From contig JBNRML010000073.1 of NCBI GenBank assembly GCA_050309585.1, positions 7,950 to 71,949 on the forward strand: DNA of 64,000 bases. The letters run 5' to 3'. A model generated the notes under the pieces. That model had not been told where the DNA came from and ran no database searches. It saw nothing but the letters and a program-made list of their open reading frames with translations. This DNA comes from Lachnospiraceae bacterium (GTDB lineage Bacteria > Bacillota > Clostridia > Lachnospirales > Lachnospiraceae). Position numbers and translations under genes: made by a program. Below, piece by piece: positions 6,173 to 41,500 of this stretch; position 1 is the first letter of the stretch, and every line of letters starts with the position of its first letter.

Positions 6173-7021
6173 ATGGAAAATAATAATGATAAAAAAGCTT
6201 TATTCCACGAAATGCTGACCTTTTTAATTGAATCTGCAAACATTAACAATGGCACTCTCACAATGGAAGAAATTCAGAATGCCTTAAAGGACGTAATTGA
6301 TGATGATTCCATGTATCAATTAGTTTACGATTATCTTTTAGAAAACAAAATTACAATCAAGGGATATATTTCCACGGAAAAAGAAATAAAAACAGGCAGC
6401 GCTACTCATACGTATTCAAAAACTGCGGAGGATTCTCTTGAAAAAAAATTTATTGATATGTATATGGAAGAAATCTGTAATGTCTCTTCCCCCGCGGAAG
6501 AAAAAGAACTTGAACTCCTTTCGGAGCTCATTGTTGCTCCTGACAACAAAGAAACTGTAAATCAGCTTGTAGAAGGAAATTTAAACAAGGTTTTGACAAT
6601 TGTTGAAAGTTACAAAGGAAAGGGTGTCTCTTTCGGAGATCTCATTCAAGAGGGAAACTTGGGATTAATTGAGGGAATCCTCACTTATACTGACACATTA
6701 TGTAAAGAAATCCCAGTTTGTGATTTTACAGTCTCTGAAAAAGACCTTGAAAGCTTTCACAATCACTTAACCTCAACAATAGTAAAGGCATTGGAAGATG
6801 CCATTCTTGAGCAAAACACCTCTGCAAGAATTTATGCTCACACTGTGGACCGCGCAAACGAGCTTGACCGCGCCTCTATCGAATTGAGCAAAAAACTTGA
6901 CCGCACACCTACTCTTGAGGAATTGGCCAAACACGTTGCACTTCCTGAAGATGAAGTTGAAAGAATTATGAAAATGTCCCTTGATGCACTTACAATTAAC
7001 CAAAATGTGGATGAAGAATAG
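6173..7021 (+). CDS. RpoD-like sigma-70 domain protein (regions 1.1, 1.2, 2, 3; no region 4)
   Basis: LVEGNLNKVLTIVESY (r2.1), DLIQEGNLGLIEG (r2.2), LDRTPTLEELA (r3); protein ends before any region 4 HTH. Confidence 0.8.
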   Translation: MENNNDKKALFHEMLTFLIESANINNGTLTMEEIQNALKDVIDDDSMYQLVYDYLLENKITIKGYISTEKEIKTGSATHTYSKTAEDSLEKKFIDMYMEEICNVSSPAEEKELELLSELIVAPDNKETVNQLVEGNLNKVLTIVESYKGKGVSFGDLIQEGNLGLIEGILTYTDTLCKEIPVCDFTVSEKDLESFHNHLTSTIVKALEDAILEQNTSARIYAHTVDRANELDRASIELSKKLDRTPTLEELAKHVALPEDEVERIMKMSLDALTINQNVDEE

Positions 7022-7069
7022 ATGTTTTCACTGGCATCCTCCGTTATGGAACGTCGGTACTGCTGCTTG

Positions 7070-7270
7070 AGTGAACACTATGTGGTATTTACACATCCAT
7101 TTAGTGTGTGCTAAACTATTTGCCTTATTGGCCATTAAAATCACCTTTCCTTCGTTATAAATTGGCTTGAACAACCTTATTATAACGGAAAGGTGATTTT
7201 TTTTGTATAACAAACACCGCGCACCCGCATAGCGGGTGGTTTATATTTCGCACGCTTCGCGAGCTCAACA
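7070..7270 (-). mobile_element. tnpA: IS200/IS605-family remnant: left end, structured leader and first ~21 codons of tnpA
   Basis: ATG at 7135 gives MANKANSLAHTKWMCKYHIVFT (IS200 TnpA N-terminus), then similarity stops; hairpin acccgcatagcgggt (~7222-7236); long inverted repeat 7139-7199 pairing with the RBS. Confidence 0.88.
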
Positions 7271-7287
7271 GGGTCACGACCTATAAA

Positions 7288-7323
7288 AATAACGGGCAGA
7301 CATTACGTCCACCCGTCGTTATT
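7288..7323 (-). terminator. rho-independent terminator, copy A of a 36-bp direct repeat
   Basis: aataacgggcagacattacgtccacccgtcgttatt hairpin with U-tract on the minus strand, 4 nt after the stop at 7328. Confidence 0.75.
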
Positions 7324-7327
7324 ACTG

Positions 7328-8176
7328 TCAGTTTTTCTCATTAAGTAACTTTCTCAGTTCTGCAATCTCAGCATCCTTTTCTGCAGTTACCGCTTTGATT
7401 TCAGCATCCTTTTCAGCAAGTTTTGCATCCCTCTTAGCAAGTTCTGCATCCTTCTCTGCAAGTTTTTCTGCAAGTTCAGCGTCTTTTTTTGCAAGTTCAT
7501 CGGCATATATCTCTTTTGCGTATTCTTCGACTATTTCACACATAATCTCACGTCCTTCCTCAGAATCCTTGTAATATTTTATGGTTTTGCTTAATTCTGG
7601 GTACATTTTATCATCAAAGCTTTCTTTTTGCAAAAACAACTTTAATAAATGAGTGTATTTATTTTCCTCATCACTCCTGGCATTTGCAAATACGATGTCT
7701 TCCCCATCATTAATCGGCCTGTACACATCATCTGTCATCTGGCATCTTGATATGTGGGTTACGGCCTGACCATTTCCCAGTGCGTCATATTCCGTTATGT
7801 ACAGAATTTTGATGTTCGGAATGTCACTGAACTTTGTGCTTTTTGGAGTGTGGTTAACGGTAAGTATTGAGGCATGAAATCTTACTCTTTTAATGTCGTC
7901 ATTTGAATTTGATTTTTGCATCTCAATGTTACACAGGGTTCCGTCTCCAAGCTCACATAATGCATCAAGAATCACTTCCCTTTCCAGGCTTGATTCACTT
8001 TTCTGGGGCGTCACCTTTTTCACAATGAGCATCTCGTCATCAAGAAGTGTTCGCAGCATTTCCTGACAGACTAACTTATGGCTTGCTATAACCCTGAAAA
8101 ACGCATCATCAATAATTCGCAGGTTTTTAACTCTGCTGAGGGTTTCCTTGTTAATTTCCTTTTTTCCCTTTTTCAT
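7328..8176 (-). CDS. Rpn-family / PD-(D/E)XK nuclease family 'transposase' with repetitive coiled-coil C-terminus
   Basis: IDDAFFRVI, EVILDALCELGDGTLCNIEMQ, RVRFHAS motifs; C-terminal AEKDAE repeats; own RBS (GAGGAG) and sigmaA-like promoter (TTGCAT-17-TAATAT, 8248-8220). Confidence 0.85.
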   Translation of the reverse strand: MKKGKKEINKETLSRVKNLRIIDDAFFRVIASHKLVCQEMLRTLLDDEMLIVKKVTPQKSESSLEREVILDALCELGDGTLCNIEMQKSNSNDDIKRVRFHASILTVNHTPKSTKFSDIPNIKILYITEYDALGNGQAVTHISRCQMTDDVYRPINDGEDIVFANARSDEENKYTHLLKLFLQKESFDDKMYPELSKTIKYYKDSEEGREIMCEIVEEYAKEIYADELAKKDAELAEKLAEKDAELAKRDAKLAEKDAEIKAVTAEKDAEIAELRKLLNEKN

Positions 8177-8317
8177 TCGTGTCTCCTCTCTTTTTATTTT
8201 GATACAAATACATTATACCATATTACTATCCTGATTCATATAATGCAACTTATTTTTTTGAGATTTTCACATTCAACAAAAAATCCAAAACCACACATTT
8301 TCCGTCCGGTGGAAAAT

Positions 8318-8353
8318 AATAACGGGCAGACATTTCGTCCACCCGTCGCTATT
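8318..8353 (-). terminator. rho-independent terminator, copy B of the 36-bp direct repeat
   Basis: aataacgggcagacatttcgtccacccgtcgctatt; 34/36 identical to 7288-7323; 22 nt after the transketolase stop. Confidence 0.75.
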
Positions 8354-8375
8354 TCATACTCTTTTATTATTTACT

Positions 8376-9317
8376 TTATCCCAAAAAACTTTTTACACTT
8401 TCGTAAATTCCCTGTCCATCAAGACCATACTTGGCAATAAGTTCTGTAGCCGGACCTGATTCACCAAATTTATCATTAATTCCAATCTTCTTAACCAAAG
8501 TAGGACATTTTTCTGAAAGCACATCACAAACTGCACTTCCGAGTCCTCCGATTACGGAATGTTCCTCAACAGTGACAATTTTTCCTGTTTCCCTGGCTGC
8601 CGCAATAACTGCATCCTCATCAATTGGCTTAATAGTATGCATATTGATTACTTTTGCTTCAATTCCGTCCTTGCTGAGCATTTCTGCTGCTTCCAATGAT
8701 GTACTTACTGTAAGACCACTGGCAATAATTGTCACATCTTTTCCCTCTCTCACTGTAACTGCCTTGCCGATTTCAAACTTATAATCTTCCTTATCATTGA
8801 TTACAGGAACTGCAAGTCTGCCAAATCTAAGGTAACATGGTCCATCAAATTCGTATGCCGCTTTTACTGCCGCCTTAGCCTCAACATAATCTGAAGGATT
8901 TATAATAACCATTCCAGGAATTGTTCTCATAAGAGCAATATCCTCATTACACTGATGTGTTGCACCATCTTCACCCACTGAAATACCGGCATGTGTTGCA
9001 CCAATTTTTACGTTGAGATGTGGGTATCCAATTGAGTTTCTAACCTGTTCAAAGGCTCTGCCTGCTGAAAACATTGCAAATGAACTTGCAAATGGAACCT
9101 TACCTGTTGCTGCAAGGCCAGCCGCAACTCCCATCATATTACACTCTGCAATACCACAATCTATATGCCTTTCAGGAAATGCTTTTTTAAATACATTTGT
9201 TTTTGTGGCTTCTGCAAGGTCGGCATCAAGCACCACAAGATTGTCAAATTCCTTTCCTGCTTCTACCAATCCGTCTCCATACCCTTCTCTTGTTGCTTTT
9301 TTTATTACTTCTGACAT
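8376..9317 (-). CDS. transketolase, C-terminal (pyrimidine-binding) subunit
   Basis: ATREGYG, DADLAEAT, GIAECNMMG, GEDGATHQ, VEEHSVIGGLG. Confidence 0.93.
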   Translation of the reverse strand: MSEVIKKATREGYGDGLVEAGKEFDNLVVLDADLAEATKTNVFKKAFPERHIDCGIAECNMMGVAAGLAATGKVPFASSFAMFSAGRAFEQVRNSIGYPHLNVKIGATHAGISVGEDGATHQCNEDIALMRTIPGMVIINPSDYVEAKAAVKAAYEFDGPCYLRFGRLAVPVINDKEDYKFEIGKAVTVREGKDVTIIASGLTVSTSLEAAEMLSKDGIEAKVINMHTIKPIDEDAVIAAARETGKIVTVEEHSVIGGLGSAVCDVLSEKCPTLVKKIGINDKFGESGPATELIAKYGLDGQGIYESVKSFLG

Positions 9318-10186: not shown

Positions 10187-13162
10187 TTATAAGAAATCCT
10201 GTTCAGTCAATTGTTTATAGTGACCTTTTCCTCTCTTCATTCTGCTAAATATTTTAGAAATTCCAAATCTGTTGGCATTCTCAATGGCATCATCTATTAC
10301 TTCCTGAATATCTTCAATGGACATTGCAGGATTTCTGCCGCTGATGTCATCTAATTTTGCATATAGTGCCAATTCGCCCATTTCGTCTATCTCATACATC
10401 TGTTCAAGGGCATAGTCTTTAGCAATTTTAACCATATCGTTGATTTCCATTTCATGGATATCCAGACGATTATTGAAGAATACTTTTAATTCCGGATTAT
10501 TTACTAACATCCTGTCGATTGCAGCCTTGTCATCCTCCAGGATAATAAGCATTTCCTCCGTATAATTCTTCATTGCGCTCATAAGGTCAACAATCGTATT
10601 AGGCATAAGATTTCCGGCCTGTTCAATAATAAGGTCAGTTCCCAAAATCTTCATCATTGCCGGTGCAACGCCCTTTTTATTGAGTGCAGACGCCTTAACC
10701 TTTGCAACTCTTCTACCGCCTCTGTTTCTTCCCTGGTTTGCCGCTTTGATGAGACTTAATCCCAATGTTGTCTTTCCAACCTTAGCCGAACCGGTAATAA
10801 TGACATTATTTGTTCTGGATGTTCCATCCAGGGTATAGTTGCTGATAAGATTCTCCAATGTCTCGGCAATATCCTCTTCCATACTTCCGGTGCCCACAAA
10901 TTCATTGAAAAGTGATGCGTATTTCTCAGGAATATGTGTAGAATCAGAATCATCGTTAGCGCCAATTTCCACAATAGACGCGACTGTTTTCTTTTCTTCT
11001 TTTTTCTTAATTTTCTTCTTTTCTTCCTGTTCTGAATCCTTTTCTTCTACTTCCTCTGATTTTCCACCAGGAATATCTTCTGTGCTGTCAGTCTCTGAAT
11101 TTTCTTCAGTCTGCTCCTCATCTGATTCAGCTTTATTATCAACATCTTCTTCTATATCTTCAAAATCATCTTCTGTCTTAATGGCGGACAAATCCGCAGC
11201 CTCTTTTTCTGCCTCAATTCTCTCGTATTCAGCCAGAACTTCATCGATTGTCATCTGACCTTCTATCTGTTCGTCATCCACATTGACTTCTTCTGTCTCT
11301 TCCTTCTGCTCCTCAGCCTTTTCCGGATAAACCATTTCTCCTGCCGGGCTGATGGTAATTCCCGCATTCAAAAGTCTGTTAATTTCTGCTCTGTCGATAA
11401 TCTTTGTTGGCTCATTTTCATAATCTGATAAATAGTCATCCTCTTCATAAGGAATGTCATCTGATTCAGCTTTATCATTCATTTTTACATAGTCGTCTTC
11501 TTCTGAAGCTTTGTTAACACTTTCTGTGTTTTCATCCGGAAATGCCTCAATGGCTGAAAAGATTTTTTCAACCTCTGACATAGTATCCTCAGTTTTTTCT
11601 TCTTCGGAATCCTCTTCTGACTCTTCAACTTCTTCAGCTGCTTCCTCAGAAACCTCTTCTGGCTCTTCAACTTCTTCAGCTACTTCCTCGGAAACCTCTT
11701 CTGGCTCTTCAACTTCTTCAGCCACTTCCTCAGAAACCTCTTCTATCTCTTCGATTTCTTCGTCTTCTTCGTCCGAAACTTCTTCCTTTTCAAAAAATCC
11801 AGTGTCACCCTTACGTGAAGGTCTTATCTCATCTTCCTCATCATCGATTCTCATCTCAAATGCATTTTTCGAGCCACTGTTTTCTTCACTGAAGAGACGT
11901 TCCATACTTTGTGCCAAAGCAGCCTGTATATTGGCGGTATTATATAAATTATTGCTATCCTCCAATTTGATATTGATTTCATCAACATCTATTTCAGCGG
12001 TCTTTGTCAGTTCTTCTCCAATATTTGAAACCTTGCCTTCCTTATTTTTATCAAATTCAAATATTTCTATTACAGAATCCCTGCGTTTAAAGTCTGATTT
12101 TCCGGCCTTAGCCACCTTTTCCTTAGCCTGATTTGCACGCATTCTTGCTTCTTCCACAAGCTTTCTTGCCATATCAGCAGCTCTCTGTGCCTCCAGTGCT
12201 GCTTCCTCTGCTGCCCTAAGTGCTGCATTTGCCATCTTTTCTTCTTCAGTTTCAAATTCTTCTTCCTGTGCTGAAGCTTTATCAGCTTCCTCTGCTCTTC
12301 TGGCCATTTCTCTGGCAGCATCACTAATACTGAACCTGCTTACTTCCTCTTCTGTCATTTCATCATCAAGATATTCTTCCTGCATATTTTCATCAAGCTC
12401 TTCATACTCTTCTTCATCAGTTTCTAAAGCTTCATCCTGCCTCTGACTATCTTCCTCATCCTTTGACAAAATAGCCTCTGCCAGCTCTTCCATACTGGAT
12501 TTCTTTTCTTTTTTGACTTCCACTACAGGCTCCGCTATAACGGCGCCGCCATAGATTTTATTATATTCTTCCAGCATTCCTGTAATAAGTCTTTTTAATT
12601 CTTTAGCTTTTTCAACATATTTTCCATTATTAAACCAGAGAATCAACTCATCACACATCTTAATACATTTGTCATCCTGGTCATTTTCATGATACAGTTT
12701 TGCAAGCTCATACTGCCATCTTTCATCCATCTCAACGTCAATATATGCTTCAAGAATTTTAATTAATACTTCTATATCCTCACCCTTTGCCTTGGCGATA
12801 CGATATTTAAGCAAATATTGTGACACGTCTGAAGGTGACATTTCAACAAAATCCTGATAAAACTCATCAGCTTCTACAAAGTTTTTTGTTCTCAATGCCA
12901 GTATGGTGAGCTTGTATGCCAGCTGTCTTCCCAAAGGAGATCTCTCATAGGCAATCAACAGAACTTCCTTGGCTTTTTCATACTGTTTTGTATTTTCATA
13001 TATATCTGCAACCCTGTTAATCATATTATTGTCCTTAACACGATACCAGTCAATTTCATCTGCAATTTTTGCAGCTGCAGCAAATTCTCTCTGACTATAC
13101 AACTTCTTAATCTGATCTGATTTAACATTGTATTCGTACTTATCCAACCTTTTTTCCTCCAT
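10187..13162 (-). CDS. TPR-repeat protein with acidic low-complexity linker and C-terminal AAA+-like P-loop domain
   Basis: N-terminal helical repeats (YEKAKEVLLIAYER...), a long E/D-rich middle, Walker A ITGSAKVGKTT and a degenerate Walker B LIIEQA. Confidence 0.7.
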   Translation of the reverse strand: MEEKRLDKYEYNVKSDQIKKLYSQREFAAAAKIADEIDWYRVKDNNMINRVADIYENTKQYEKAKEVLLIAYERSPLGRQLAYKLTILALRTKNFVEADEFYQDFVEMSPSDVSQYLLKYRIAKAKGEDIEVLIKILEAYIDVEMDERWQYELAKLYHENDQDDKCIKMCDELILWFNNGKYVEKAKELKRLITGMLEEYNKIYGGAVIAEPVVEVKKEKKSSMEELAEAILSKDEEDSQRQDEALETDEEEYEELDENMQEEYLDDEMTEEEVSRFSISDAAREMARRAEEADKASAQEEEFETEEEKMANAALRAAEEAALEAQRAADMARKLVEEARMRANQAKEKVAKAGKSDFKRRDSVIEIFEFDKNKEGKVSNIGEELTKTAEIDVDEINIKLEDSNNLYNTANIQAALAQSMERLFSEENSGSKNAFEMRIDDEEDEIRPSRKGDTGFFEKEEVSDEEDEEIEEIEEVSEEVAEEVEEPEEVSEEVAEEVEEPEEVSEEAAEEVEESEEDSEEEKTEDTMSEVEKIFSAIEAFPDENTESVNKASEEDDYVKMNDKAESDDIPYEEDDYLSDYENEPTKIIDRAEINRLLNAGITISPAGEMVYPEKAEEQKEETEEVNVDDEQIEGQMTIDEVLAEYERIEAEKEAADLSAIKTEDDFEDIEEDVDNKAESDEEQTEENSETDSTEDIPGGKSEEVEEKDSEQEEKKKIKKKEEKKTVASIVEIGANDDSDSTHIPEKYASLFNEFVGTGSMEEDIAETLENLISNYTLDGTSRTNNVIITGSAKVGKTTLGLSLIKAANQGRNRGGRRVAKVKASALNKKGVAPAMMKILGTDLIIEQAGNLMPNTIVDLMSAMKNYTEEMLIILEDDKAAIDRMLVNNPELKVFFNNRLDIHEMEINDMVKIAKDYALEQMYEIDEMGELALYAKLDDISGRNPAMSIEDIQEVIDDAIENANRFGISKIFSRMKRGKGHYKQLTEQDFL
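11622..11744. repeat. 42-bp tandem repeat x~3 inside the TPR gene
   Basis: Unit tcttcaacttcttcagc(t/c)(g/a)cttcctc(a/g)gaaacctcttctggc, encoding EEVSEE(V/A)AEEVEEP-type repeats. Confidence 0.9.
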
Positions 13163-32726: not shown

Positions 32727-34826
32727 CTATTTTGATATATAGCAGTTTTTTGTGCTTCCCGGAGCTGCTCCACCTTTTTTAACAAGTCTGATTTCTATGG
32801 CCTCTAATCGCTTTGCATAACCCGCTGTACCGGCCGGTGCACCATTTTTCGCCCAGCCAAGCCAGCCATAGGTCTGTGCGTGTACACGATAATAGACATC
32901 ATAATAATTTGCAATATCGCCTGTCAGTTTTATTTCTATTGCCTCAAGACGTTTTGCCTGACCTGTTGTTCCACTAAGGTTATTGTTACTTACAAATCCC
33001 ATCCAGCCATATGTCTGTACATGTGTCCTGTAACTGATTCCTCCACTTATGGACGCAGAATCCAATTTAATCTTTATACCCTCAAGTCTTAATGCCTTTC
33101 CTGCAGTTCCAGCCATTGCACCATCCTTAACATAGCTCTGCCAGCCTATCTTCTGAACATGAGTAGTATATGACACAGACGGATTTTTTACTGTCACCTT
33201 ACACACCGCCGTCTTTAATCCATCTCTTGTTTTCGCTGTTATGGTTGCTGAACCCTGACCGACACCGGTAACCACTCCCGTACTGCTTACAGTGGCCACT
33301 GAGGAATTTGAGGTCGACCAAATTATTGACTTATTTGTAGCATTGGCAGGGGCAATAATAGGTACCAGCTGGGTTTTTCCGCAGGTCGTAAGCACCGCTG
33401 ATGTCTTATTTAGCGACAGCCCCGTCACCGCTATATTTTGATCGCTCACGGTAATCACACATTGTGCCGTTCTGTTTCCATCCTCCGAAGTTGCAATTAT
33501 GGATGCAGAACCAAGACCTACGGCAGTGACAAGACCCGTATACTTATTAACTGTAACCACATTTTTATTTGTGGTCCTATATGTTACTGTCTTGTTATTT
33601 GCATTTGATGGTAATACAGTTGCAGTTAATTTTACCTGTTTTCCCACATCCGTGAGAGTATATGTAGAATAATTCATGCTGACTCCCGTGGCTTTTACTG
33701 TACTTCTATCACCACTTAAGGTCAGTATTTTTTCATTTCCACAGGTGCTGTATCCATAAGATACACTTCCTGTGATTCCCAATCTGTTGATTATCGTATT
33801 TATATTACTCTGTACCCATGGCCAGAAGTTGTCCGTGTTACAATAAAAGTACATATCCGCCGTTAAATCTTTATTCAAGGCCTTAACCACATTATCCACA
33901 GTAAGTGCTGAGAATAAATACAGATTCATTACCTTAAAATAATTTGCCTGCGTATAATTTGTAGTCGGAATGTAATATGGCATATCTGGTTTATGGTCTC
34001 TTGACATCTCGCTGTATGATAAATTGAAATATGCATGATATGTTTTAGTTGACTGGTCATCCCAGGTCAAATCTACATAATAATATCCATTGTCAATCTT
34101 AACCATATTCCATGCATGTCCGCCGCCTGCCTGACCCTCAATATTTGATGACAATATACCTACTTTATATAATGCATACTGAAAGGCCCTTGAATATCCC
34201 TCGCATACAGCCTTTCCGTCAACAAGTGCCCCGTAAGCACTGTGGCTTTTATCACCTGTGTCAACATATGTAATCTTATTAGCCAGCCTGTCGTGTATCA
34301 ATAATTCTCGTTCAAACTCGCTCATGGATGCATCTATTCCACTAATAATACTTGCAACAGCAGAGTTAAATGCCGACTTAGCAGATGCAAGCTGTCCCTT
34401 ACTTATGATATACGAATAAGAAAGACTTATTATCTTTGAATCACTTGAATTATATGAATACGAATACCCCGTTCCCCTCCAGAAGTGCTGCGGATAATCA
34501 TTTGCATATGCCGATGTAACTATTTTTAGCTGTTCCTTTGTTATACGCCTTGAAGCATCCGTAAATTCTATTTTTGCCTCATATTTTTCCACACCTGCTG
34601 CAATTTTATCATACGCATACAGCAGATTTGCACTGTTAGCCATAGTGGCAAGCCTTGAACGTCCATAATAATTTGCCTTATTTACCTCTGTGAGTGCAGG
34701 CAGGGCAGCATATGCCTTTACCTGATACTTCACAAATCCATTACCCGAAACATTAAAAACCATCAAAATGGTTAAAATCAGAATTGATAAAGTTTTTATC
34801 CTACTATTATTTTTTTTCATACTCAT
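32727..34826 (-). CDS. secreted transglutaminase-like protein with two Big_2 Ig domains and ClW repeats
   Basis: Signal peptide; triad AVCEGYS / GHAWNMV / YVDLTWD; WSTSNSSVATVSSTGVVTGV (Big_2); three THVQxxGW...RLEAIEI repeats. Start 34826 (GGAGGA RBS). Confidence 0.88.
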   Translation of the reverse strand: MSMKKNNSRIKTLSILILTILMVFNVSGNGFVKYQVKAYAALPALTEVNKANYYGRSRLATMANSANLLYAYDKIAAGVEKYEAKIEFTDASRRITKEQLKIVTSAYANDYPQHFWRGTGYSYSYNSSDSKIISLSYSYIISKGQLASAKSAFNSAVASIISGIDASMSEFERELLIHDRLANKITYVDTGDKSHSAYGALVDGKAVCEGYSRAFQYALYKVGILSSNIEGQAGGGHAWNMVKIDNGYYYVDLTWDDQSTKTYHAYFNLSYSEMSRDHKPDMPYYIPTTNYTQANYFKVMNLYLFSALTVDNVVKALNKDLTADMYFYCNTDNFWPWVQSNINTIINRLGITGSVSYGYSTCGNEKILTLSGDRSTVKATGVSMNYSTYTLTDVGKQVKLTATVLPSNANNKTVTYRTTNKNVVTVNKYTGLVTAVGLGSASIIATSEDGNRTAQCVITVSDQNIAVTGLSLNKTSAVLTTCGKTQLVPIIAPANATNKSIIWSTSNSSVATVSSTGVVTGVGQGSATITAKTRDGLKTAVCKVTVKNPSVSYTTHVQKIGWQSYVKDGAMAGTAGKALRLEGIKIKLDSASISGGISYRTHVQTYGWMGFVSNNNLSGTTGQAKRLEAIEIKLTGDIANYYDVYYRVHAQTYGWLGWAKNGAPAGTAGYAKRLEAIEIRLVKKGGAAPGSTKNCYISK

Positions 34827-34862
34827 CACGCATCCTCCTCCTTTTATCATACAGAAACGTTA

Positions 34863-37800
34863 TCAGTTCCCCACAACAACAGTTACTGAGTTACTTTTTA
34901 CTATTTCCCCCTTTTCATTTTTCACATACACGGTAAATATCTTTGTTCCCACACTGGTAAGAGGACCTGTGTATGACAACACATTGGAATATTTTTTTAA
35001 CACAATTGTTGCACCAGTCTTAACATTTAACATTTCATACTGGTATGTGTACGTGCCTGCCTCTCCTGTTATGCAAGGAACAAGCTTTACACTGTCTCCC
35101 ACAGTCATATTTACAGTTCCTGTTTTTTCATTAACCTTTAATTCCACTGAAAAAGATGCCTTTTTCGCTACAACAACTGTTACAGAATTACTTGTGACTA
35201 TTTTTCCAGTTCCGTCCTTAACATTTACCGTGAAAATTTTCGTTCCTGCACTGGTAAGTGGACCAGTGTATTTTGCAAGTGTTGTATATCCAGTCAACTC
35301 ATGATTTTTTCCTGTGTTTACATTTTTCATTATGTACTGATATTTGTATCCTCCATTGCCACCTGACACAACTGGAGTTAATACGACGCTATCACCTACA
35401 GTCATATTTACTGTTCCTGTTTTTCCATTGGCAGACAGCTTAACACTCATTACATTTTCCACATTTACCGTGACAGAGTTGCTGGATATTACTTTTCCAC
35501 TACTATCCTTAACATTTACAGTAAAAATCTTTGTTCCTGCACCGGTAAGAGGACCTGTATATGACAATGCACTGCTGTAATCCTTTAAAACAATGGTGAC
35601 GCCTGTCTTAACATTTTTCATTATATACTGGTATTCATAGCTTCTTGTACCACCGGATGCCGTTGGAACAATAGTCACACTTCCGCCAACCGAAAGATTT
35701 AATGTATCACTTGTGTTATTTACCTTCAAATCACATGAAAGAGGTATTATTGTTCTGCTGATTTTTAATGGTTCCTTTTGCAAGGCCGTCAACTCTTTGT
35801 AGTTGCTGGCAAAATATGTGTCTTCGCCTATCTTTGAGGCAAACGCAGTAACCTTCACATAATAATCTTTCTCACCGTTATACTTTGCCTCTGGAAAAGT
35901 CCAGCTATTTGATTTTACCTTTCCAAAATACTCATATTCCCCATCATAACTTTCTGATATGTATATGTAATAATACCCAAACGTTCCCAAAACACCTGAA
36001 TAGGCATCCCAGCTAACAACAGGTAATTCCGAGGTTATTTCATACTTCAGGTTATCAAGTTCAGGTTTTCTAACCAAAGCACTAACTGTCACCGAATTTC
36101 CTTCCACATTTTTTTCATCAACAATGCTATACGGCTTTACCCAGTATACATACTCATTTAACTCATCTGATGCCTTAAATTCCTCACTGTACACAAGCTG
36201 TTCGGTTCTGTTTACATTCTTCATTAAATCGTAAGAGCGTGTATCACTGTTATATTTGTAAACCTCATAAAAGTCTATATCATCTATGCTATTCCATGTA
36301 AATCTGACTTCATCACATACACTTCCGTCAACTGTAATTACAGGAGCTGGTGACTTTACGAGAATACTATCTGAAACCGACGTTGATGAGCTCTCAGTCA
36401 CTCCATTAATTAAATAATTCACGGCAACCTTAAAATATGTTTTTTGGTTGTATTTTATTTCCACTGCATATGATGTGTCCTTTATATCATGAATTTCATC
36501 ATAATTTACACCATCCATCGAATAGAAAAGTGTATAGGACTCTGCACCCTGAACCTCTTCCCAACTTACAACTGCCGATTTACTTTGTTCCGCAACGGAG
36601 GTTATAACCGTTCCTGGCAAATCCGTACTGATACTCTTTATTATCGAAAAATCCGTATACTGTTTTATACCAGACTCATCCGTCACACCTCTCACCTTGT
36701 AATAATATTTTTTACCAGGCTCAACCATATTATCAACATATACATTATCGTAAGTAGGTGCAATCAACGAATAATCCCCATTTACACTTTCGCACCTGTA
36801 AAGCTCATATTGCAAATCTTCCGAAGGCTTATTCCACTCAATACTCACACTGTTAAGTCCTGTCTGCACCAATTCTGTTATCTCCGGTGCCTCGCTTATT
36901 CCGTCATCAACATTTGTGAATGCCTTAATGCACACATTTATCTTGCTGCTTGACATCGGATACTTCTGGTACAAATCCACAAGATTTGTTCCGTCAACAG
37001 AATAATAGCTTTCATTGTTTGCGTTTGCATTATTATATTCAGTGTAGCTGTCAGAATGATACGAATACTCAATTGCAGTACTTTTATCAAAAGTAATTAC
37101 AACAGCAAATGTATCTCCCTCATTAAGCTTAACTGCATTCGGCAACGTCACAGTATAATATCCCGCGTAGGTTGTAGAACCGGTAACAGGCTGTTCCAAA
37201 AGAGGTTCTCCACTTTCGGGATTATCAGTTCCCGTGAAATTTCCATTTTCATCTTCCACATCAAGGGTCGGATTTTTATAAATTTGAATAGAATAGTTTC
37301 GCACTGCGTCCCTTGTTGCAAAGGATACCGCATTCAAATTCTGGTTTCCTGTACCCTCAGGTACCGTAAATACATTTGCATATTTCTTACTGCTTAAGAA
37401 AACTTCTCCACTGGCATAGATTAATCCCTCGCCAAAATATGTGTTTCCATCATATTGATAATTGTAATCAAAAAATCCTGCCGGTGCCACTTCAAAAATA
37501 GTACCATTTGCGATATTATTTCCAATGTCATAATATGAAATCCACATATATCCCTGGTCGTGCCAGCCTGTTCCCCAGCTGTTTTTTATAAGCCATGCAC
37601 CATCACCCTCAGGGACATGTGTTCCATTTTCATCTGTCAACGCAAAATTGTCCTTGCTGATACTGTCATCCCATCCCACTATTGTTATAGCGTGATTGCA
37701 GGATTTAAGCTCATAATTGTAAAAATAATTACCGTTTCTGTACTTATCATCATCGTAATAATATGTCGCCAAAGCTCCATTTTCCATAATCGCTCTTTTT

Positions 37801-38507
37801 ATCAGTTCCCGCTCAGTCATGCTAATTTCATACATACCTGTTAATATGTAGGATAATTTTGAGGCATCATACCTGTATTCCGGAAGATTTGTACTGCTTA
37901 ACGGATATTCACATTCTTCCTCATTTACAATACCAGCCCATTTACTTAGTACCTTAAAAGCGTAGGCATCGTTTCCACCCACATACTTTAAGCAATTGCT
38001 TATGTTATCCACAGAAGAATAATCTCCATCTGTTCCACCCAAAGGATCAACAAAACTTGTATCATCATATGCAAGATAAGCAAGGCTGTACTCTGACAAG
38101 TCTATGTCCGAAGGTGAGTCTACAAGCCCGTGAGACAATGCATAGGATTCCATTGCTGCAACTGTCGCAAATGCCCAGCATGTTCCAAGACTTCTCTGAT
38201 TTTTGACAGACGTCACAAAACCATAATTTCTTGAGTCATATTTTTCCGGAACATAAGCTGACAGCAGCTTGTCCTTTTTGTTGCTTTCCAGCTCTCCACC
38301 CACCAAAGGTGCTCTAAAACCATTGTCCTTATAGCCATAAAAATGCTGTGTTTCCCCCGTATCTACTTTTTCCCCTGGTGTTTCTGAAGCCTTACATACA
38401 ATTTTTTTATTTATTACAGCTCCAAAATTCACTCCCGAAAAAGATGACGTCACCATAAAGCTCGCCAAACTTATGGCTACCACTTTTTTTAGCATTGATT
38501 TTCTCAT
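34863..38507 (-). CDS. secreted C1A (papain) cysteine protease with lectin-like domain, FN3-like domains and 3 C-terminal ~96-aa repeats
   Basis: VKNQRSLGTCWAFA, NHAITIVGWD, IKNSWG; lectin-like YQYDG...KYANVF; FN3 YYYKVRG; signal peptide. Confidence 0.9.
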   Translation of the reverse strand: MRKSMLKKVVAISLASFMVTSSFSGVNFGAVINKKIVCKASETPGEKVDTGETQHFYGYKDNGFRAPLVGGELESNKKDKLLSAYVPEKYDSRNYGFVTSVKNQRSLGTCWAFATVAAMESYALSHGLVDSPSDIDLSEYSLAYLAYDDTSFVDPLGGTDGDYSSVDNISNCLKYVGGNDAYAFKVLSKWAGIVNEEECEYPLSSTNLPEYRYDASKLSYILTGMYEISMTERELIKRAIMENGALATYYYDDDKYRNGNYFYNYELKSCNHAITIVGWDDSISKDNFALTDENGTHVPEGDGAWLIKNSWGTGWHDQGYMWISYYDIGNNIANGTIFEVAPAGFFDYNYQYDGNTYFGEGLIYASGEVFLSSKKYANVFTVPEGTGNQNLNAVSFATRDAVRNYSIQIYKNPTLDVEDENGNFTGTDNPESGEPLLEQPVTGSTTYAGYYTVTLPNAVKLNEGDTFAVVITFDKSTAIEYSYHSDSYTEYNNANANNESYYSVDGTNLVDLYQKYPMSSSKINVCIKAFTNVDDGISEAPEITELVQTGLNSVSIEWNKPSEDLQYELYRCESVNGDYSLIAPTYDNVYVDNMVEPGKKYYYKVRGVTDESGIKQYTDFSIIKSISTDLPGTVITSVAEQSKSAVVSWEEVQGAESYTLFYSMDGVNYDEIHDIKDTSYAVEIKYNQKTYFKVAVNYLINGVTESSSTSVSDSILVKSPAPVITVDGSVCDEVRFTWNSIDDIDFYEVYKYNSDTRSYDLMKNVNRTEQLVYSEEFKASDELNEYVYWVKPYSIVDEKNVEGNSVTVSALVRKPELDNLKYEITSELPVVSWDAYSGVLGTFGYYYIYISESYDGEYEYFGKVKSNSWTFPEAKYNGEKDYYVKVTAFASKIGEDTYFASNYKELTALQKEPLKISRTIIPLSCDLKVNNTSDTLNLSVGGSVTIVPTASGGTRSYEYQYIMKNVKTGVTIVLKDYSSALSYTGPLTGAGTKIFTVNVKDSSGKVISSNSVTVNVENVMSVKLSANGKTGTVNMTVGDSVVLTPVVSGGNGGYKYQYIMKNVNTGKNHELTGYTTLAKYTGPLTSAGTKIFTVNVKDGTGKIVTSNSVTVVVAKKASFSVELKVNEKTGTVNMTVGDSVKLVPCITGEAGTYTYQYEMLNVKTGATIVLKKYSNVLSYTGPLTSVGTKIFTVYVKNEKGEIVKSNSVTVVVGN

Positions 38508-38530
38508 ACCTTTCCTCCTATTCTACTTTA

Positions 38531-38549
38531 TGTACTCTCGGAATCTTTC
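38531..38549. promoter_or_regulatory. half-copy of the recurring upstream palindrome
   Basis: tgtactctcggaatctttc just 5' of the RBS of the 1214-aa protease. Confidence 0.45.
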
Positions 38550-38572
38550 AGAAAAACATTAATTTTTTTTAC

Positions 38573-41500
38573 CTATTTTGCCTCAACTGTAACAGCATTA
38601 CTTTCCACTACAATTCCACTACTGTCCTTAAATTTTACGAAAAACAATTTTGTACCTGTACTTTTAATAGGAGCAGAAAATGTGCTTGAACTTGTATAAT
38701 CCTTAAGCACCACGCACTTTCCTGTTGACATATTTTTCATTACATACTGATACATATATGGAGCTGTTCCACCTCTTGCAGAAGCAGAAAATACAATATT
38801 TTTTCCAACAGAGGCACTGACATTATCAAGTCCTCCATTTATTCTAAGATTCACTGTAGGCGCTTCAACAACATTGACAACCACCTGCTCCGAGCTCTTA
38901 ACTTTGCCGTTACTATCCTTTACATTAAGCATAAATATTTTTTCGCCTGTGGTATTCAGCTTTCCTGTATAGCTTGACACCGTTGAATAATCCTTTAAGA
39001 TAACGCTCTGACCTGTTGATACATACTTCATTACAAACTGATATGTATAGCCCGGGTATCCTCCTGCAACCCCTGCAGTAAGATTTACACTGATACCCTT
39101 GAGCAATGCCATTGAACCAGTCTTTCCATTTGCCCTTAAGACTGCTGTAATCGGCTTTTTGGCCTGTACCTTTATTTTATTAGTCGTTACAATGCTTCCC
39201 GTGCTGTCTTTTACATTTACATAAAATTCTTTTATGCCTTCGCTGTTAAGAGGCGCCGTATAACTTGATGCCGAACTAAAATCTTTGAGAACAACACTTT
39301 TATTTGTGGAAGTATCTTTCATGATATAGCGATATGTATAAACACCACTTCCACCCTTTGCTGTGGTTTTAATGGTAATATTGGTTCCCGTGTAAGTTTT
39401 TAATGTTCCTCCAGCACCATTCACGGTTGCCGTTGCACTAAGTACTGCATTTACCACAACCTTCACACTATTGGACTTAACTACCTTGCCATTACTATCC
39501 TTGACACTCACATAAAACTCTTTTGCTCCTTCAGATGTCATGGTGCCAACATAGCTTGCGTCACTACTATAACCTTTTAGCACAACTGTTTTTCCTGTCG
39601 ACAGATTTTTCATACTGTATTGATATGTATATCCCGGGTATCCTCCTGCCACCCCAGGTTTAAGAGTAACTGTGCTGCCAATCTGTAAATTTACTGTATC
39701 CTTTGTACCATTAACCCTTAGCACAGCCTGTAATACAGGCTTAACTACAACCGGTACCTCATTTGCCTTGACAACTTTTCCTGTACTGTCTTTAACCTTT
39801 AATATATATGTCTTGTTTGCATTTTGTGAAATTACCGTGGTCAAAGATGTCTGTGTACTAAAATTACTTAATATTGTAACTGTTCCTGTTGCCACATCCT
39901 TAACAGAATATTGATATGTATATCCTGGAAAACCTCCTGCCACGCCCGCTGTCAATTTTATTGTGTTTCCAACATACTTTTTAAGAGTATCCTTGCTTCC
40001 ATCTACTCTGAGTACCGCCTGTAATGGCTCAGCCGTTTTTACAGAAATTGTATTTGTACTTACCATGGCGCCTGTACTGTCCTTTACACGGGCAACATAT
40101 ATTTTTGTTCCCACACTTGAAGCTGTAATGCTGTACGTATGTGTGGCACTATAGTCTTTTAATATTTTAAGTTCGCCTGTAGTTGCATTTTTCTCAAGAA
40201 ACTGATATGTGTAGCCTCCACTTCCACCACTTACTCCAATCGTTAGTGATATACTTGTTCCTTTTTCAACATTAACTGTGGTGTTGCTTCCATTTCCTCT
40301 CAGCACTGCTTCCAGATTACTGTCCACAGTCACTTTGACTTCATTACTAATAGCTACCCTTCCATTATCATCTCTTAAAATGGCATAAAATATTTTTGTT
40401 CCAGGTGTGGTCACTGTTGTATTTAATATTGAATCAGAACCAAAATCCTTCACTGTAATTTCCTGACCTGTTGTCTCATTCTTCATAAGGAATTTGTATT
40501 CAGTTTCATCAAAACGACCACCCGGTGTTACGGATAATGCAAATTTTTCTCCAACCGTAATTCTCAACGATGTTGATTGCACACCACCTTTGGAAATATG
40601 AAGACTTGCTTTAGCCGGGCTGACCTCATCTGACAATTCTGTATATTTTTTCACTCCATTGACAATCTTGTATCCTCTTATTCGATAATAATACCAGGCG
40701 TTTTCAGTAATGTTCTTGTCAGCAAACTTGTTTCCTGTGGTAGTTCCTATAGGTACATTGTCAGCATAAAAGCTATAATTTTTATATATCTCATATGTAT
40801 ATCCACTATTGGCTTTCCATTTCAGAATGATTTCTGAATCCTGATTTCTAGTCATACCGGTGATAACAGGCTTTCCTGGCAAATAATTTGTAGTAAACGC
40901 CTTTATACAGATATTCATATCATATATGCTTGTATTCGGGTCCTCGTACATATCTGTAAGCGTTGTTCCATCCTTGGAATAAAAACTCTGATTATTTAAG
41001 CTTTCATTGTGGTCATTCAGTTTCGATACATCACTTTTTGAAAATGAATATGACAATGCGGTATCTTTATCAAACGTAATCACAATTGCAAAGGTGTCAT
41101 TTTCATTCAATGTTATTTCCTGATTAAGCTTAACGGTGTAATATCCCACATATGAGGTTGTTCCCGTAACTGGGCTTTTGAGAAGTGCTTTTCCACTGGT
41201 CAAATTATCCGTGCCCACAAAACTTCCGTCCTCCTGCTCTGTGTTCAGCTGTGGATTCTTGTAAACCATAATAGAATAACTGCGGTTCGTATCTAAAACA
41301 GCAAACGAAACTGAGTCAAGCTTCTGAGTGCCTTTCCCCGCTGGTACAGTAAACACGGATGCGTATTTTTTACTGCTAATAAAATAACTGCCGTCTTTAT
41401 ATTTTAAAACCTCTGTCAGTGAAGTGTTTCCATCCCATTGATAAATATTGTCATTTACACCCGACTTATCCACTTCATATACTGCAGCGTTTATATCCAT

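What the first reader, a model, noticed from the sequence alone, without database searches (positions are those of the whole stretch)
7288..8353. Self-contained Rpn nuclease cassette bracketed by a duplicated 36-bp terminator
Seen: 7288-7323 and 8318-8353 are 34/36 identical direct repeats 1030 bp apart. Between them lie a sigmaA-like promoter, an RBS and the whole Rpn gene. Each copy serves as a terminator (one for transketolase, one for rpn). Inference: the gene was inserted or is excisable by recombination at a terminator, which preserves host termination. This would be a terminator-targeting mobility route for Rpn genes.
Basis: partly seen in the sequence, partly recalled or inferred. Interest (0 to 1): 0.62.

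Follow-up and report, generated by a model that had tools for sequence, protein, structure and literature searches.

The report
Rpn defence gene between duplicated terminators
A single Rpn toxin/antitoxin-type nuclease gene with its own promoter sits after the transketolase genes of an uncultured gut Lachnospiraceae bacterium, between two copies of one terminator hairpin; the same layout recurs at three other unrelated rpn loci, so it is a real signature of how these genes arrive or amplify, but targeting of terminators and excision are not shown.

Summary
They are the only two copies in 64 kb. On the minus strand each folds as an 11-bp intrinsic terminator.

Between them lie an extended -10 promoter, an RBS and a 282-aa PDDEXK_2/Rpn-family gene. 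That gene has a conserved internal Shine-Dalgarno site and start codon, as in the published RpnL/RpnS toxin-antitoxin genes.

The repeat is not a genome-wide element. It is also not part of the IS200 remnant that abuts copy B.

In a survey of 25 distinct rpn loci, 4 have strong flanking direct repeats (34-112 nt). Each repeat carries a different terminator lying just after the upstream gene. None of about 131 non-rpn genes has such repeats.

Mobility through the terminator is unproven:
- No single-copy empty site and no 1030-bp deletion joint appeared in the 19 metagenome runs laid on the window.
- The one empty allele found, at another locus, has no terminator at all.
- Head-to-tail rpn junctions exist, so tandem duplication is a serious rival.

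Verdict: a real, recurrent and previously unreported feature of a known gene family. The mechanism is unresolved.

The parts
8376..9317 (-). Transketolase C-terminal subunit gene, the upstream host gene whose transcript copy A would terminate
   Evidence: Pfam Transket_pyr and Transketolase_C, E 7e-44 and 5e-35. Synteny tktN-tktC-[variable slot]-sigma-CotH in relatives.
8315..8353 (-). Repeat copy A: intrinsic terminator hairpin (stem 8321-8347) plus U-tract, 22 nt after the tkt stop
8298..8316 (-). Small second hairpin TTTTCCACCGGACGGAAAA at the start of the leader. It belongs to the longer (~60 nt) ancestral repeat seen in IS-free strains.
   Evidence: Read. X5/X15 loose end TTCCACCGGGCGGGAAAATATTGG after a copy-B-type hairpin.
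8212..8220 (-). Extended -10 promoter element TGGTATAAT (inferred)
   Evidence: Read; conserved in L001 and L003. Not called by the -35/-10 scan.
8182..8190 (-). Ribosome-binding site GAGAGGAGA, 5 nt before the ATG at 8176
   Evidence: Read.
7328..8176 (-). rpn gene: 282-aa PD-(D/E)XK (PDDEXK_2/Rpn family) nuclease, the long toxin form
   Evidence: PF12784, 31 bits (cut-off 27.4); TIGR01784, 24 bits (below the 52.1 cut-off). 595 homologues. D71, E85, Q87, K88 and P154..D157-G158 are invariant in alignment A1.
7328..7543 (-). Internal in-frame ORF of 71 aa (RpnS-like candidate antitoxin). SD AGGAAGGA at 7553-7560, ATG at 7541-7543.
   Evidence: At this aligned codon, 70 of 72 distinct homologous CDS have ATG (50), GTG (19) or TTG (1), preceded by a GGAGG-like motif. 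This is the architecture described in PMC10400941.
7358..7504 (-). 21/33-nt (7-aa AEKDAEL-type) repeats encoding the variable C-terminal tail
   Evidence: families D1-D3. Length variants in metagenomes: joints 7376>7469, 7419>7476, 7385>7473.
7285..7323 (-). Repeat copy B: intrinsic terminator hairpin (stem 7291-7317), 4 nt after the rpn stop
7069..7286 (-). Remnant of an IS200/IS605-family element: left end, palindrome 7222-7238, RBS-occluding inverted repeat 7137-7200, and the first 22 codons of tnpA from ATG 7135. It is not part of the rpn unit and cuts the ancestral repeat short.
   Evidence: Depth 5-100x the flanks, with boundaries at 7069 and 7285/7286. The N-terminus is 97% identical to annotated IS200/IS605 tnpA.
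6173..7021 (+). Convergent sigma-70-like gene (regions 2-3 only) bounding the variable slot
   Evidence: A 276-aa orthologue is conserved in relatives.

Best explanation
What it is. This is a chromosomal, transcriptionally self-contained rpn module in a variable slot between the tkt operon and a convergent sigma-like gene. It consists of a leader with an extended -10 promoter, an RBS, and an RpnL nuclease ORF carrying an internal RpnS-type start. The host is an uncultured animal-gut Lachnospiraceae bacterium.

How it works. Two copies of one intrinsic terminator insulate the module. Copy A ends tkt transcription and shields the toxic nuclease gene from read-through. Copy B ends the rpn transcript before the convergent gene.

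How the repeat arose (inferred). The two copies come from a local duplication tied to the arrival or amplification of the rpn module. The path I consider most likely is that the promoter-plus-rpn segment was inserted just 3' of the tkt terminator, and that the terminator-bearing target (about 40-60 bp here, 34 to over 110 bp elsewhere) was duplicated in the same event. Widely staggered breaks or a template switch at the hairpin could do this. The result resembles a long, variable target duplication.

Afterwards the repeats permit unequal recombination, which would give tandem rpn arrays. An IS200-family element later inserted right after copy B and removed the outer part of the repeat.

Shown: the anatomy, the terminator folds, the recurrence and rpn-specificity of flanking terminator duplications, the internal start site, and the IS boundary. 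Inferred: promoter activity, the order of events, the duplication mechanism, and the insulation role.
For: Anatomy and folds.

Family.

Internal start with SD conserved in 70 of 72 CDS. This matches the RpnL/RpnS design in PMC10400941.

Recurrence: 4 of 25 distinct loci have Smith-Waterman scores of 54-194 between the upstream and downstream flanks. The null maximum is 31 over 600 mismatched pairs, and the other 21 loci sit at null level. The four loci are:
- WIN/L001/L103, after tkt
- L008/L009/L101, after prfB-hyp105
- L042, after a HAD phosphatase
- L014, after an MTES_1575 REase-like gene

In each, the repeat contains a different terminator hairpin lying about 20-50 nt after the upstream gene's stop with no other terminator there. 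Copy 2 begins +1 to +37 nt after the rpn stop.

Specificity: 0 of about 131 other ORFs show such repeats.

Not a dispersed repeat.

Not part of the IS: depth steps at 7285/7286, and other copies of this IS abut other terminators.

A-versus-B differences are conserved between strains, so the duplication is old and fixed.

Tandem junctions compatible with repeat-mediated amplification: X16 and L021.
Against: - No empty site with one terminator copy was found for any of the four loci.
- The only empty allele recovered (X33, L042 locus) has the HAD stop 12 nt before the next gene, with no terminator, and also lacks the XRE gene downstream of copy 2. There, both copies lie inside the indel block unless two nested insertions occurred.
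- Repeat edges are fuzzy and extend 15-35 nt into the leader. A collapsed tandem duplication would leave the same trace.
- 34 to over 110 bp is very long and variable for a staggered-cut duplication.
- Insert ends share no motifs.
- Zhong et al. 2023 (PMC10400941) report no target-site duplications and explain rpn arrays by tandem duplication.
- 21 of 25 loci have no repeat.
Confidence: 0.42

Rival explanations
1. The duplication came after insertion, or the block was pre-formed. rpn modules are prone to tandem direct duplication. A duplication of the unit [terminator-leader-rpn] placed a second terminator behind rpn, and the redundant second leader-rpn was then deleted or replaced (here finally by the IS200 event). 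Alternatively, the block terminator-rpn-terminator already existed and moved between strains by homologous recombination in flanking genes. Under this reading the repeat is not a target-site duplication, and no targeting of terminators is involved.
For: - Head-to-tail junctions exist: the X16 contig (rpn 3' end - hairpin - 47 nt - leader - rpn 5' end), L021 (repeat includes the rpn 3' end, unit 1173 nt), and an X14 junction with a different hairpin.
- The 30 nt after the hairpin in IS-free strains (X5, X15) are identical to the start of the second leader in X16.
- Repeats run 15-35 nt into the leader.
- The L042 empty allele lacks the terminator and the whole block.
- PMC10400941 reports arrays made by tandem duplication and no target-site duplications.
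Against: - It needs three events (insertion, duplication, deletion), repeated in four unrelated loci.
- Each time the remnant of the second unit is only about 15-35 nt, and no trace of a second rpn follows copy 2.
- The leader start diverges much more between the two units (about 73% over 30 nt) than the promoter and rpn 5' part does (about 95%) in the X16 junction. That is odd for a simple recent tandem copy.
Confidence: 0.3
2. The roughly 1-kb unit excises as a circle and re-integrates by recombination between terminator copies (Campbell-type or site-specific), with the hairpin acting as an attachment site.
For: - Direct repeats flank the unit exactly.
- The X16 head-to-tail junction is what a circle junction would look like.
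- Attachment-site-like repeats of 34-112 nt are typical of integrative elements (own knowledge).
Against: - No recombinase gene lies in or beside the unit. The neighbours are conserved housekeeping genes.
- No 1030-bp deletion joint appeared in 19 runs.
- The junction in X16 carries a leader start that differs from the resident one, so it is not a circle of this copy.
- Identity blocks are at most 17 nt.
- Hairpins differ completely between loci, and the L042 empty allele has no site.
Confidence: 0.1
3. IS200/IS605-type (PATE-like) element. The two directly repeated imperfect hairpins are left-end and right-end structures recognised by a Y1 transposase, with rpn as cargo. The adjacent tnpA remnant would be the mobilising enzyme.
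For: - IS200/IS605 elements carry similar subterminal hairpins in direct orientation (own knowledge).
- A tnpA remnant lies 150 nt from copy B.
Against: - The IS boundary is at 7285/7286, outside the hairpin. Depth drops from 50-770x to about 1-2x there.
- The IS's own hairpins (7222-7238, 7137-7200) are unrelated to the repeat.
- Other copies of this IS abut other terminators, so its position reflects its own target preference.
- The hairpin is not multicopy.
- Strains without the IS at this junction exist.
Confidence: 0.03
4. Coincidence or concerted evolution. Neighbouring co-oriented genes happen to have, or have converged by gene conversion on, the same terminator, with no link to rpn.
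For: Terminators are short and structurally constrained (own knowledge).
Against: - 0 matches in 100 shuffles.
- 0 of about 131 non-rpn genes show this, against 4 of 25 rpn loci. My hypergeometric calculation from the counts gives p of about 5e-4.
- In L008 most of the 112 nt lies outside the terminator stem.
Confidence: 0.03

Closest known systems
Rpn (YhgA-like) recombination-promoting nucleases with intragenic RpnS antitoxins (E. coli RpnA-E; Kingston 2017, PMC5350276; Zhong 2023, PMC10400941)
   Same: - PD-(D/E)XK core with a D...ExQ motif and a conserved second acidic motif (PxxDGxDI here, PDDEI in E. coli).
- A variable, repeat-containing C-terminal tail.
- A conserved internal SD and start that would give a small C-terminal protein.
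- Single-gene presence/absence in otherwise syntenic regions.
- Tandem arrays.
   Different: - It belongs to the PDDEXK_2 (PF12784) branch and scores below the NCBIfam Rpn cut-off.
- Tail repeats are 7 aa, not 4 aa.
- The published analysis found no target-site duplications and variable ends. Here 4 of 25 loci carry 34-112-nt direct repeats of a terminator.
Phage 'morons' (autonomous promoter-gene-terminator units inserted between genes; own knowledge)
   Same: A self-contained expression unit inserted in an intergenic position, with its own promoter and a factor-independent terminator.
   Different: The location is chromosomal, not in a prophage (viral contig scan negative). Morons are not known to be flanked by duplicated host terminators.
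Terminator-targeting mobile elements: class C (IIC) group II introns, and the IS200-family element seen here (own knowledge)
   Same: The insertion point lies immediately 3' of an intrinsic terminator hairpin, which preserves termination of the upstream gene.
   Different: Those elements have defined ends and dedicated enzymes, and they do not duplicate the terminator. The rpn unit has no conserved ends and no RT or Y1 transposase of its own.
Repeat duplication on CRISPR spacer integration, and casposon target duplication (own knowledge; PMC5137440 listed)
   Same: Insertion of new DNA next to a structured repeat, with duplication of that whole repeat, yielding repeat-insert-repeat and arrays.
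   Different: No Cas1-type integrase is present. Repeat length is variable and locus-specific. This is an analogy only.
Integron gene cassettes (attC hairpins between cassettes; own knowledge)
   Same: A single ORF bracketed by imperfect hairpin-forming sites in direct orientation; arrays are possible.
   Different: - No R''/R' (RYYYAAC / GTTRRRY) boxes across loci.
- No integrase.
- The unit has its own promoter.
- The hairpins act as terminators of ordinary host genes.

Membership tests
Rpn / PDDEXK_2 nuclease family | Significant match to the family profile (Pfam PF12784 or PF04754; NCBIfam TIGR01784) | tested here: inconclusive
   PF12784: 31.0 bits, against a gathering score of 27.4 (E 2.7e-7), covering profile positions 18-124 of 229. 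TIGR01784: 24.1 bits, below its 52.1 cut-off. All 119 listed homologues but one carry PF12784, and some are named Rpn family by NCBI.
Rpn / PDDEXK_2 nuclease family | PD-(D/E)XK catalytic motif D...E-x-Q(K) and a conserved downstream acidic motif (RpnA D63, E82, Q84, PDDEI; PMC5350276) | tested here: met
   D71, E85, Q87 (and K88) and P154-x-x-D157-G158-x-x-I161 are invariant or nearly so in 19 diverse homologues. The correspondence to RpnA residues rests on motif spacing, not on a direct alignment to RpnA.
Rpn / PDDEXK_2 nuclease family | Variable C-terminal tail with short amino-acid repeats | tested here: met
   Tails are unalignable between homologues. There are 21/33-nt repeats at 7358-7504. 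Length variants occur in metagenomes.
RpnL/RpnS intragenic toxin-antitoxin | Internal translation start producing a small protein identical to the tail | tested here: met
   In silico only. A start codon occurs at the aligned position in 70 of 72 distinct CDS (ATG 50, GTG 19, TTG 1). The codon at this position is GTG, never another valine codon, in all 19 CDS that lack ATG or TTG. A GGAGG-like motif lies 7-12 nt upstream. Translation has not been demonstrated.
RpnL/RpnS intragenic toxin-antitoxin | Nuclease toxicity neutralised by the small protein; antiphage activity | not testable with these tools
   PADLOC 2023 has no model that matches. Expression assays are needed.
Insertion sequence / transposon | Defined element ends (terminal inverted repeats or conserved subterminal structures) shared by copies | tested here: not met
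   The first and last 30-40 nt of the four inserts share no motif and no inverted repeats. Paralogues at about 80% nucleotide identity share only the CDS from -55 to +5.
Insertion sequence / transposon | Target-site duplication of fixed, short length, with an empty site carrying one copy | tested here: not met
   Repeats are 34, 36, 39 and 112 nt, longer where the flanks are considered. No single-copy empty site was found. The one empty allele lacks the sequence.
Integron cassette | attC site with R''/L''-L'/R' boxes, and an integron integrase or attC array nearby | tested here: not met
   The hairpins of the four loci share no AAC...GTT box pattern. The neighbours are tkt, sigma and CotH, with no recombinase.
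IS200/IS605 PATE-like element | Hairpins are the IS's own left-end and right-end structures and are multicopy in the genome | tested here: not met
   The IS boundary is at 7285/7286, outside the hairpin. Hairpin depth is about 1-2x, against 50-770x for the IS. The core pattern is found in 2 of 185,579 species genomes.
Intrinsic (Rho-independent) terminator | GC-rich stem-loop followed by a U-tract on the transcribed strand, directly after a stop codon | tested here: met
   Termination in vivo was not tested.

The most novel reading that the evidence does not exclude
Rpn-family nucleases, or the host's repair of the breaks they make, insert their own promoter-bearing gene next to hairpin-forming terminators. 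Nicking on both sides of the structured DNA would let the two long overhangs fold and separate, and fill-in would then duplicate the whole terminator. This would be a transposase-free, end-independent, structure-guided way for a toxin/antitoxin defence gene to spread. It would arrive already insulated and would seed arrays, formally analogous to repeat duplication at CRISPR leaders.
Probability: 0.12. Interest if true: 0.85.

Novelty: new variant of a known kind. Interest (0 to 1): 0.52.

Why it matters
How rpn genes move is an open question. They are very widespread, patchy, multi-copy toxin/antitoxin-type defence genes.

The two experimental papers conclude that the genes are horizontally mobile as single genes, yet have no recognisable ends or target duplications (PMC5350276, PMC10400941). 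A recurrent footprint at 16% of loci in one gut-Clostridia subfamily, specific to rpn and always involving the upstream gene's terminator, gives the first concrete handle on the insertion or amplification event.

It also suggests a functional logic. A toxic nuclease whose safety depends on the ratio of long to short product should be shielded from read-through on both sides.

If the duplication is insertion-coupled, it would be a new kind of structure-guided gene insertion. If it stems from tandem duplication, it documents how rpn arrays are born and decay.

Either way, the finding is testable with isolate genomes and long reads.

Tried and rejected
Searches that led nowhere:
- Scanning all species genomes for the hairpin core gave 2 unrelated hits (Citricoccus; Firmicutes UBA6113, a lone intergenic hairpin). 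The window's species is apparently not among the representatives.
- Exact look-up of the Rpn protein found nothing on record.
- The empty-site search through Tkt relatives at 90-92% identity found the same slot filled with other cargo (a GGDEF gene; small ORFs plus a C39/ABC transporter; others) and other terminators. These are not informative.
- The empty-site search for L008 through its upstream 105-aa gene found a third MAG with the same insertion, plus an unrelated conjugative context.
- The look-up of the sigma-like protein returned contigs that break in the multicopy IS. L109 and L107 continue into other IS copies, probably as chimeric assemblies.
- Contigs of 19 runs were laid on the window and 8 on L042. 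There was no 1030-bp or 1106-bp skip. Found instead were a 702-nt internal deletion in L042 relatives and the X33 block deletion.
- All-against-all comparison of loci to define unit ends failed. Apparent shared units were either orthologous loci with indels or paralogues sharing only the coding region.
- The viral contig scan, plasmid tblastn, PDB sequence search and PADLOC found no relatives.
- Literature searches for terminator duplication on insertion, or for later Rpn mobility work, found nothing relevant.

Ideas rejected:
- The idea that the sigma-like gene was truncated by the IS. The 276-282-aa form lacking region 4 is conserved in relatives.
- The 'CTGACAG' motif before copy 2 in both WIN and L014. 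It is part of the longer, diverged L014 repeat.
Full report
**1. Observation**

7288-7323 and 8318-8353 differ at 2 of 36 positions. Ungapped, the repeat is 39 nt (7285-7323 / 8315-8353, 36/39), 1030 bp apart.

No shuffle of the window gives a match. No other intergenic direct repeat of at least 28 nt within 4 kb exists in the 64 kb.

All genes involved are on the minus strand. On that strand each copy folds into an 11-bp stem (with two G-U pairs) and a 5-nt loop, followed by a U-tract (-22.0 and -22.7 kcal/mol, z about -3.4). On the plus strand the stem is broken. Both copies pass the terminator scan.

Copy A begins 22 nt after the stop of the transketolase C-terminal subunit. Copy B begins 4 nt after the stop of a 282-aa ORF. 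Independent assemblies carry the same structure.

**2. The gene**

The ORF matches Pfam PDDEXK_2 just above threshold (31 vs 27.4 bits). It scores below the cut-off of the NCBIfam Rpn model (24 vs 52 bits).

It has 595 homologues. After its own cluster the closest are about 60-68% identical, from Lachnospiraceae MAGs, some named 'Rpn family recombination-promoting nuclease/putative transposase'.

An alignment of 19 homologues shows an invariant D71 ... E85-x-Q87-K88 and a P-x-x-D-G-x-x-I motif. These correspond by spacing to the RpnA catalytic D63/E82/Q84 and the PDDEI motif of Kingston et al. (PMC5350276). The C-terminal tails are unalignable.

At window residue M212, 70 of 72 distinct homologous coding sequences have a start codon (ATG 50, GTG 19, TTG 1). 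The codon at this position is GTG, never another valine codon, in all 19 CDS that lack ATG or TTG. A GGAGG-like motif lies 7-12 nt upstream.

This is the design described for E. coli rpn genes: a toxic long nuclease and a small antitoxin translated from an internal start (PMC10400941). In the window the small ORF is 7328-7543 (71 aa). It consists largely of 7-aa repeats whose number varies in metagenomes.

A perfect extended -10 (TGGTATAAT, 8212-8220) and a strong RBS precede the gene. The simple -35/-10 scan did not call a promoter.

**3. Surroundings**

The source is an uncultured Lachnospiraceae bacterium of animal guts. Homologues are named so by NCBI, and the runs holding the sequence are bovine, pig and poultry metagenomes.

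In relatives with 90-92% identical Tkt the order is tktN - tktC - [variable] - sigma-like(276 aa) - CotH. The variable slot holds a GGDEF gene, or small ORFs plus a C39/ABC transporter, or other genes. The tkt terminators there are different hairpins.

The slot is therefore a cargo hotspot. These relatives are too distant to serve as an empty site.

**4. The IS next door**

7069-7286 is the left end and the first 22 codons of an IS200/IS605-family tnpA (97% identical to annotated tnpA genes once the reading frame is continued from metagenome contigs).

It is multicopy. Depth there is 5-100 times the flanks, with sharp boundaries at 7069 and 7285/7286. Depth over the hairpin itself is only 1-2 times the flanks.

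Other copies of this IS abut other terminator hairpins, at ...TTTTATTA|T(G/A)GGTCGTGACC. Its position after copy B therefore reflects its own target preference.

In strains where copy B is not followed by the IS (contigs of 2.4 and 1.1 kb in X5 and X15), the hairpin is followed by TTCCACCGGGCGGGAAAATATTGG.... The first ~21 nt of this resemble the leader start after copy A, TTCCACCGGACGGAAAATGTGTGG. The ancestral repeat was thus about 60 nt, and the IS truncated it in the window.

**5. Is the link to rpn general?**

I collected rpn loci from metagenomes and from look-ups. For each I compared the 390 nt upstream (-450 to -60) with the 156 nt around and after the stop.

Of 25 loci with distinct flanks, four score 54-194. 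The maximum over 600 mismatched pairs is 31, and the other 21 loci sit at the null mean.

| Locus | Upstream gene | Downstream | Repeat |
|---|---|---|---|
| Window (WIN/L001/L103) | tkt | IS200 remnant, sigma-like gene | 39 nt |
| L008/L009/L101 (three MAGs) | prfB and a 105-aa gene | not annotated | 112 nt, 95% identical |
| L042 | HAD phosphatase | XRE regulator | 34 nt |
| L014 | MTES_1575-type gene | M13 peptidase | 36 nt, 86% identical |

In all four the repeat contains a terminator hairpin, unrelated in sequence between loci. It lies about 20-50 nt after the upstream gene's stop. The first copy lies 140-254 nt before the rpn ATG, and the second begins +1 to +37 nt after the rpn stop.

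The same test on about 131 other ORFs of at least 200 aa in the window and loci gave no score of 40 or more; the maximum was 34. My hypergeometric calculation on 4/25 versus 0/131 gives p of about 5e-4.

Zhong et al. state that rpn genes lack identifiable target-site duplications. This subfamily qualifies that statement.

**6. What the repeats are not**

- They are not a dispersed element.
- They are not IS ends (section 4).
- They are not attC-like, since the hairpins share no boxes.
- The inserts have no common termini or inverted repeats.

**7. Evidence on mechanism**

(a) No deletion joint between the copies appeared in the 19 runs laid on the window. The A-versus-B differences are the same in different strains. 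The duplication is therefore old and fixed, and excision is not observed.

(b) Head-to-tail rpn junctions exist:
- An X16 contig reads rpn 3' end - hairpin - 47 nt - leader promoter - rpn 5' end.
- L021 has a repeat that includes the rpn 3' end, with an 1173-nt period.
- X14 shows an rpn tail - other hairpin - leader junction.

Tandem rpn units separated by terminators are thus real, as Zhong et al. reported.

(c) The only empty allele I could recover is at the L042 locus. A 928-nt X33 contig joins the HAD gene to the 468-aa gene, with the HAD stop 12 nt before the next ATG. It has no terminator, no rpn and no XRE gene. At that locus both repeat copies lie inside the indel, unless the XRE-plus-terminator and the rpn arrived in two steps.

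(d) Repeat identity is highest in the stems and fades over 15-35 nt into the leader.

**8. Interpretation**

The general statement is well supported: this is an insulated RpnL/RpnS-type module whose flanking terminators are duplicates created in connection with rpn arrival or amplification.

The specific path is not settled.
- I favour insertion just 3' of the host terminator with concomitant duplication of the terminator-bearing target (0.42). It needs one event per locus, and it explains why copy 1 is always the only terminator of the upstream gene.
- The tandem-duplication-then-decay or pre-formed-block model (0.30) is favoured by points (b) and (c).
- A PATE-like reading and coincidence are essentially excluded.

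**9. Comparison and novelty**

The gene is a member of a known family, by the PDDEXK_2 branch and by Rpn-like features. Its single-gene mobility is known.

What is new is the recurrent, rpn-specific duplication of an intrinsic terminator around the gene, together with in-silico evidence that the intragenic-antitoxin design extends to this gut-Clostridia subfamily.

It works like a 'moron'. It sits where terminator-targeting elements (IIC introns, this IS200) sit, but unlike them it duplicates the terminator.

I rate it a new variant of a known kind, with moderate interest. A specialist would want to see the empty sites before accepting any mechanism.

Noticed in passing
window 7069-7286 (minus strand): Truncated IS200/IS605-family element: left end plus 22 codons of tnpA. 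It is highly multicopy in the metagenomes. This copy and several other copies lie immediately 3' of intrinsic terminator hairpins (junction ...TTTTAT(T)A | T(A/G)GGTCGTGACC), so the IS itself appears to target terminators.
   Followed up: partly
window 7328-7543 (minus strand); all rpn loci L006-L089: Conserved internal SD plus ATG/GTG start in 70 of 72 homologous rpn genes. This predicts a 52-83-aa RpnS-like protein equal to the variable tail. The intragenic-antitoxin design seems general in this Lachnospiraceae PDDEXK_2 subfamily.
   Followed up: yes
window 7358-7504: 21/33-nt repeats encoding AEKDAEL-type heptads in the Rpn tail. Metagenome contigs show length variants (skips of 56, 87 and 92 nt with small replacements), i.e. 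a hypervariable tail like the 4-aa repeat variation reported for E. coli RpnS.
   Followed up: partly
L113 (ENA contig k141_2991007); joint 8022>8192 in window coordinates: A second, degenerate rpn copy, apparently in the same species. It has a 52-codon N-terminal deletion between TGAAAAAGG microhomologies. Its tail is replaced after ...ADELAK and runs into an unrelated gene, with no hairpin. The rpn core has about 2x depth in runs X7, X11 and X15.
   Followed up: partly
L042 2804-3507 (runs X27, X29): A variant with a 702-nt deletion that removes the leader and the nuclease domain but keeps the C-terminal part with the internal start. This is an antitoxin-only remnant, as seen for decaying toxin-antitoxin genes.
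   Followed up: no
window 6173-7021 (plus strand) and L090-L096: A sigma-70-like protein of 276-282 aa with regions 2 and 3 but no region 4. It is conserved next to a CotH kinase-like gene in several related species. Its function is unclear.
   Followed up: no
window 7022-8375 compared with L090-L097: The intergenic slot between tktC and the sigma-like gene carries different cargo in each related species (a GGDEF protein; small ORFs plus a C39 peptidase/ABC transporter; others). It is a hotspot for gene gain.
   Followed up: partly
window 10187-13162 (repeats at 11557-11808) and 34800-42300: A 991-aa highly acidic protein with 42-nt tandem repeats, and two very large ORFs with about 291-nt repeated domains (spacing 291/297 and 3983). 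These are probably surface or repeat proteins and are unrelated to the finding.
   Followed up: no
L005 6727-6870 (Firmicutes bacterium UBA6113): Two related intergenic hairpins about 130 nt apart (tacgggtggacctcgtgtctgcccgt and gtaggggcggacctcgtgtccgcccgt), with no rpn nearby. Hairpins of this GGGYRGAC...GTCYRCCC type may be a recurrent terminator or REP-like motif in Clostridia.
   Followed up: no
L042 3903-4250 and 4287-5693: An XRE-family HTH gene with its own TTGACA...TAAAAT promoter lies directly after repeat copy 2 and is absent together with rpn in the X33 allele. The following 468-aa gene has no Pfam or PADLOC match. These may be defence-related neighbours.
   Followed up: partly
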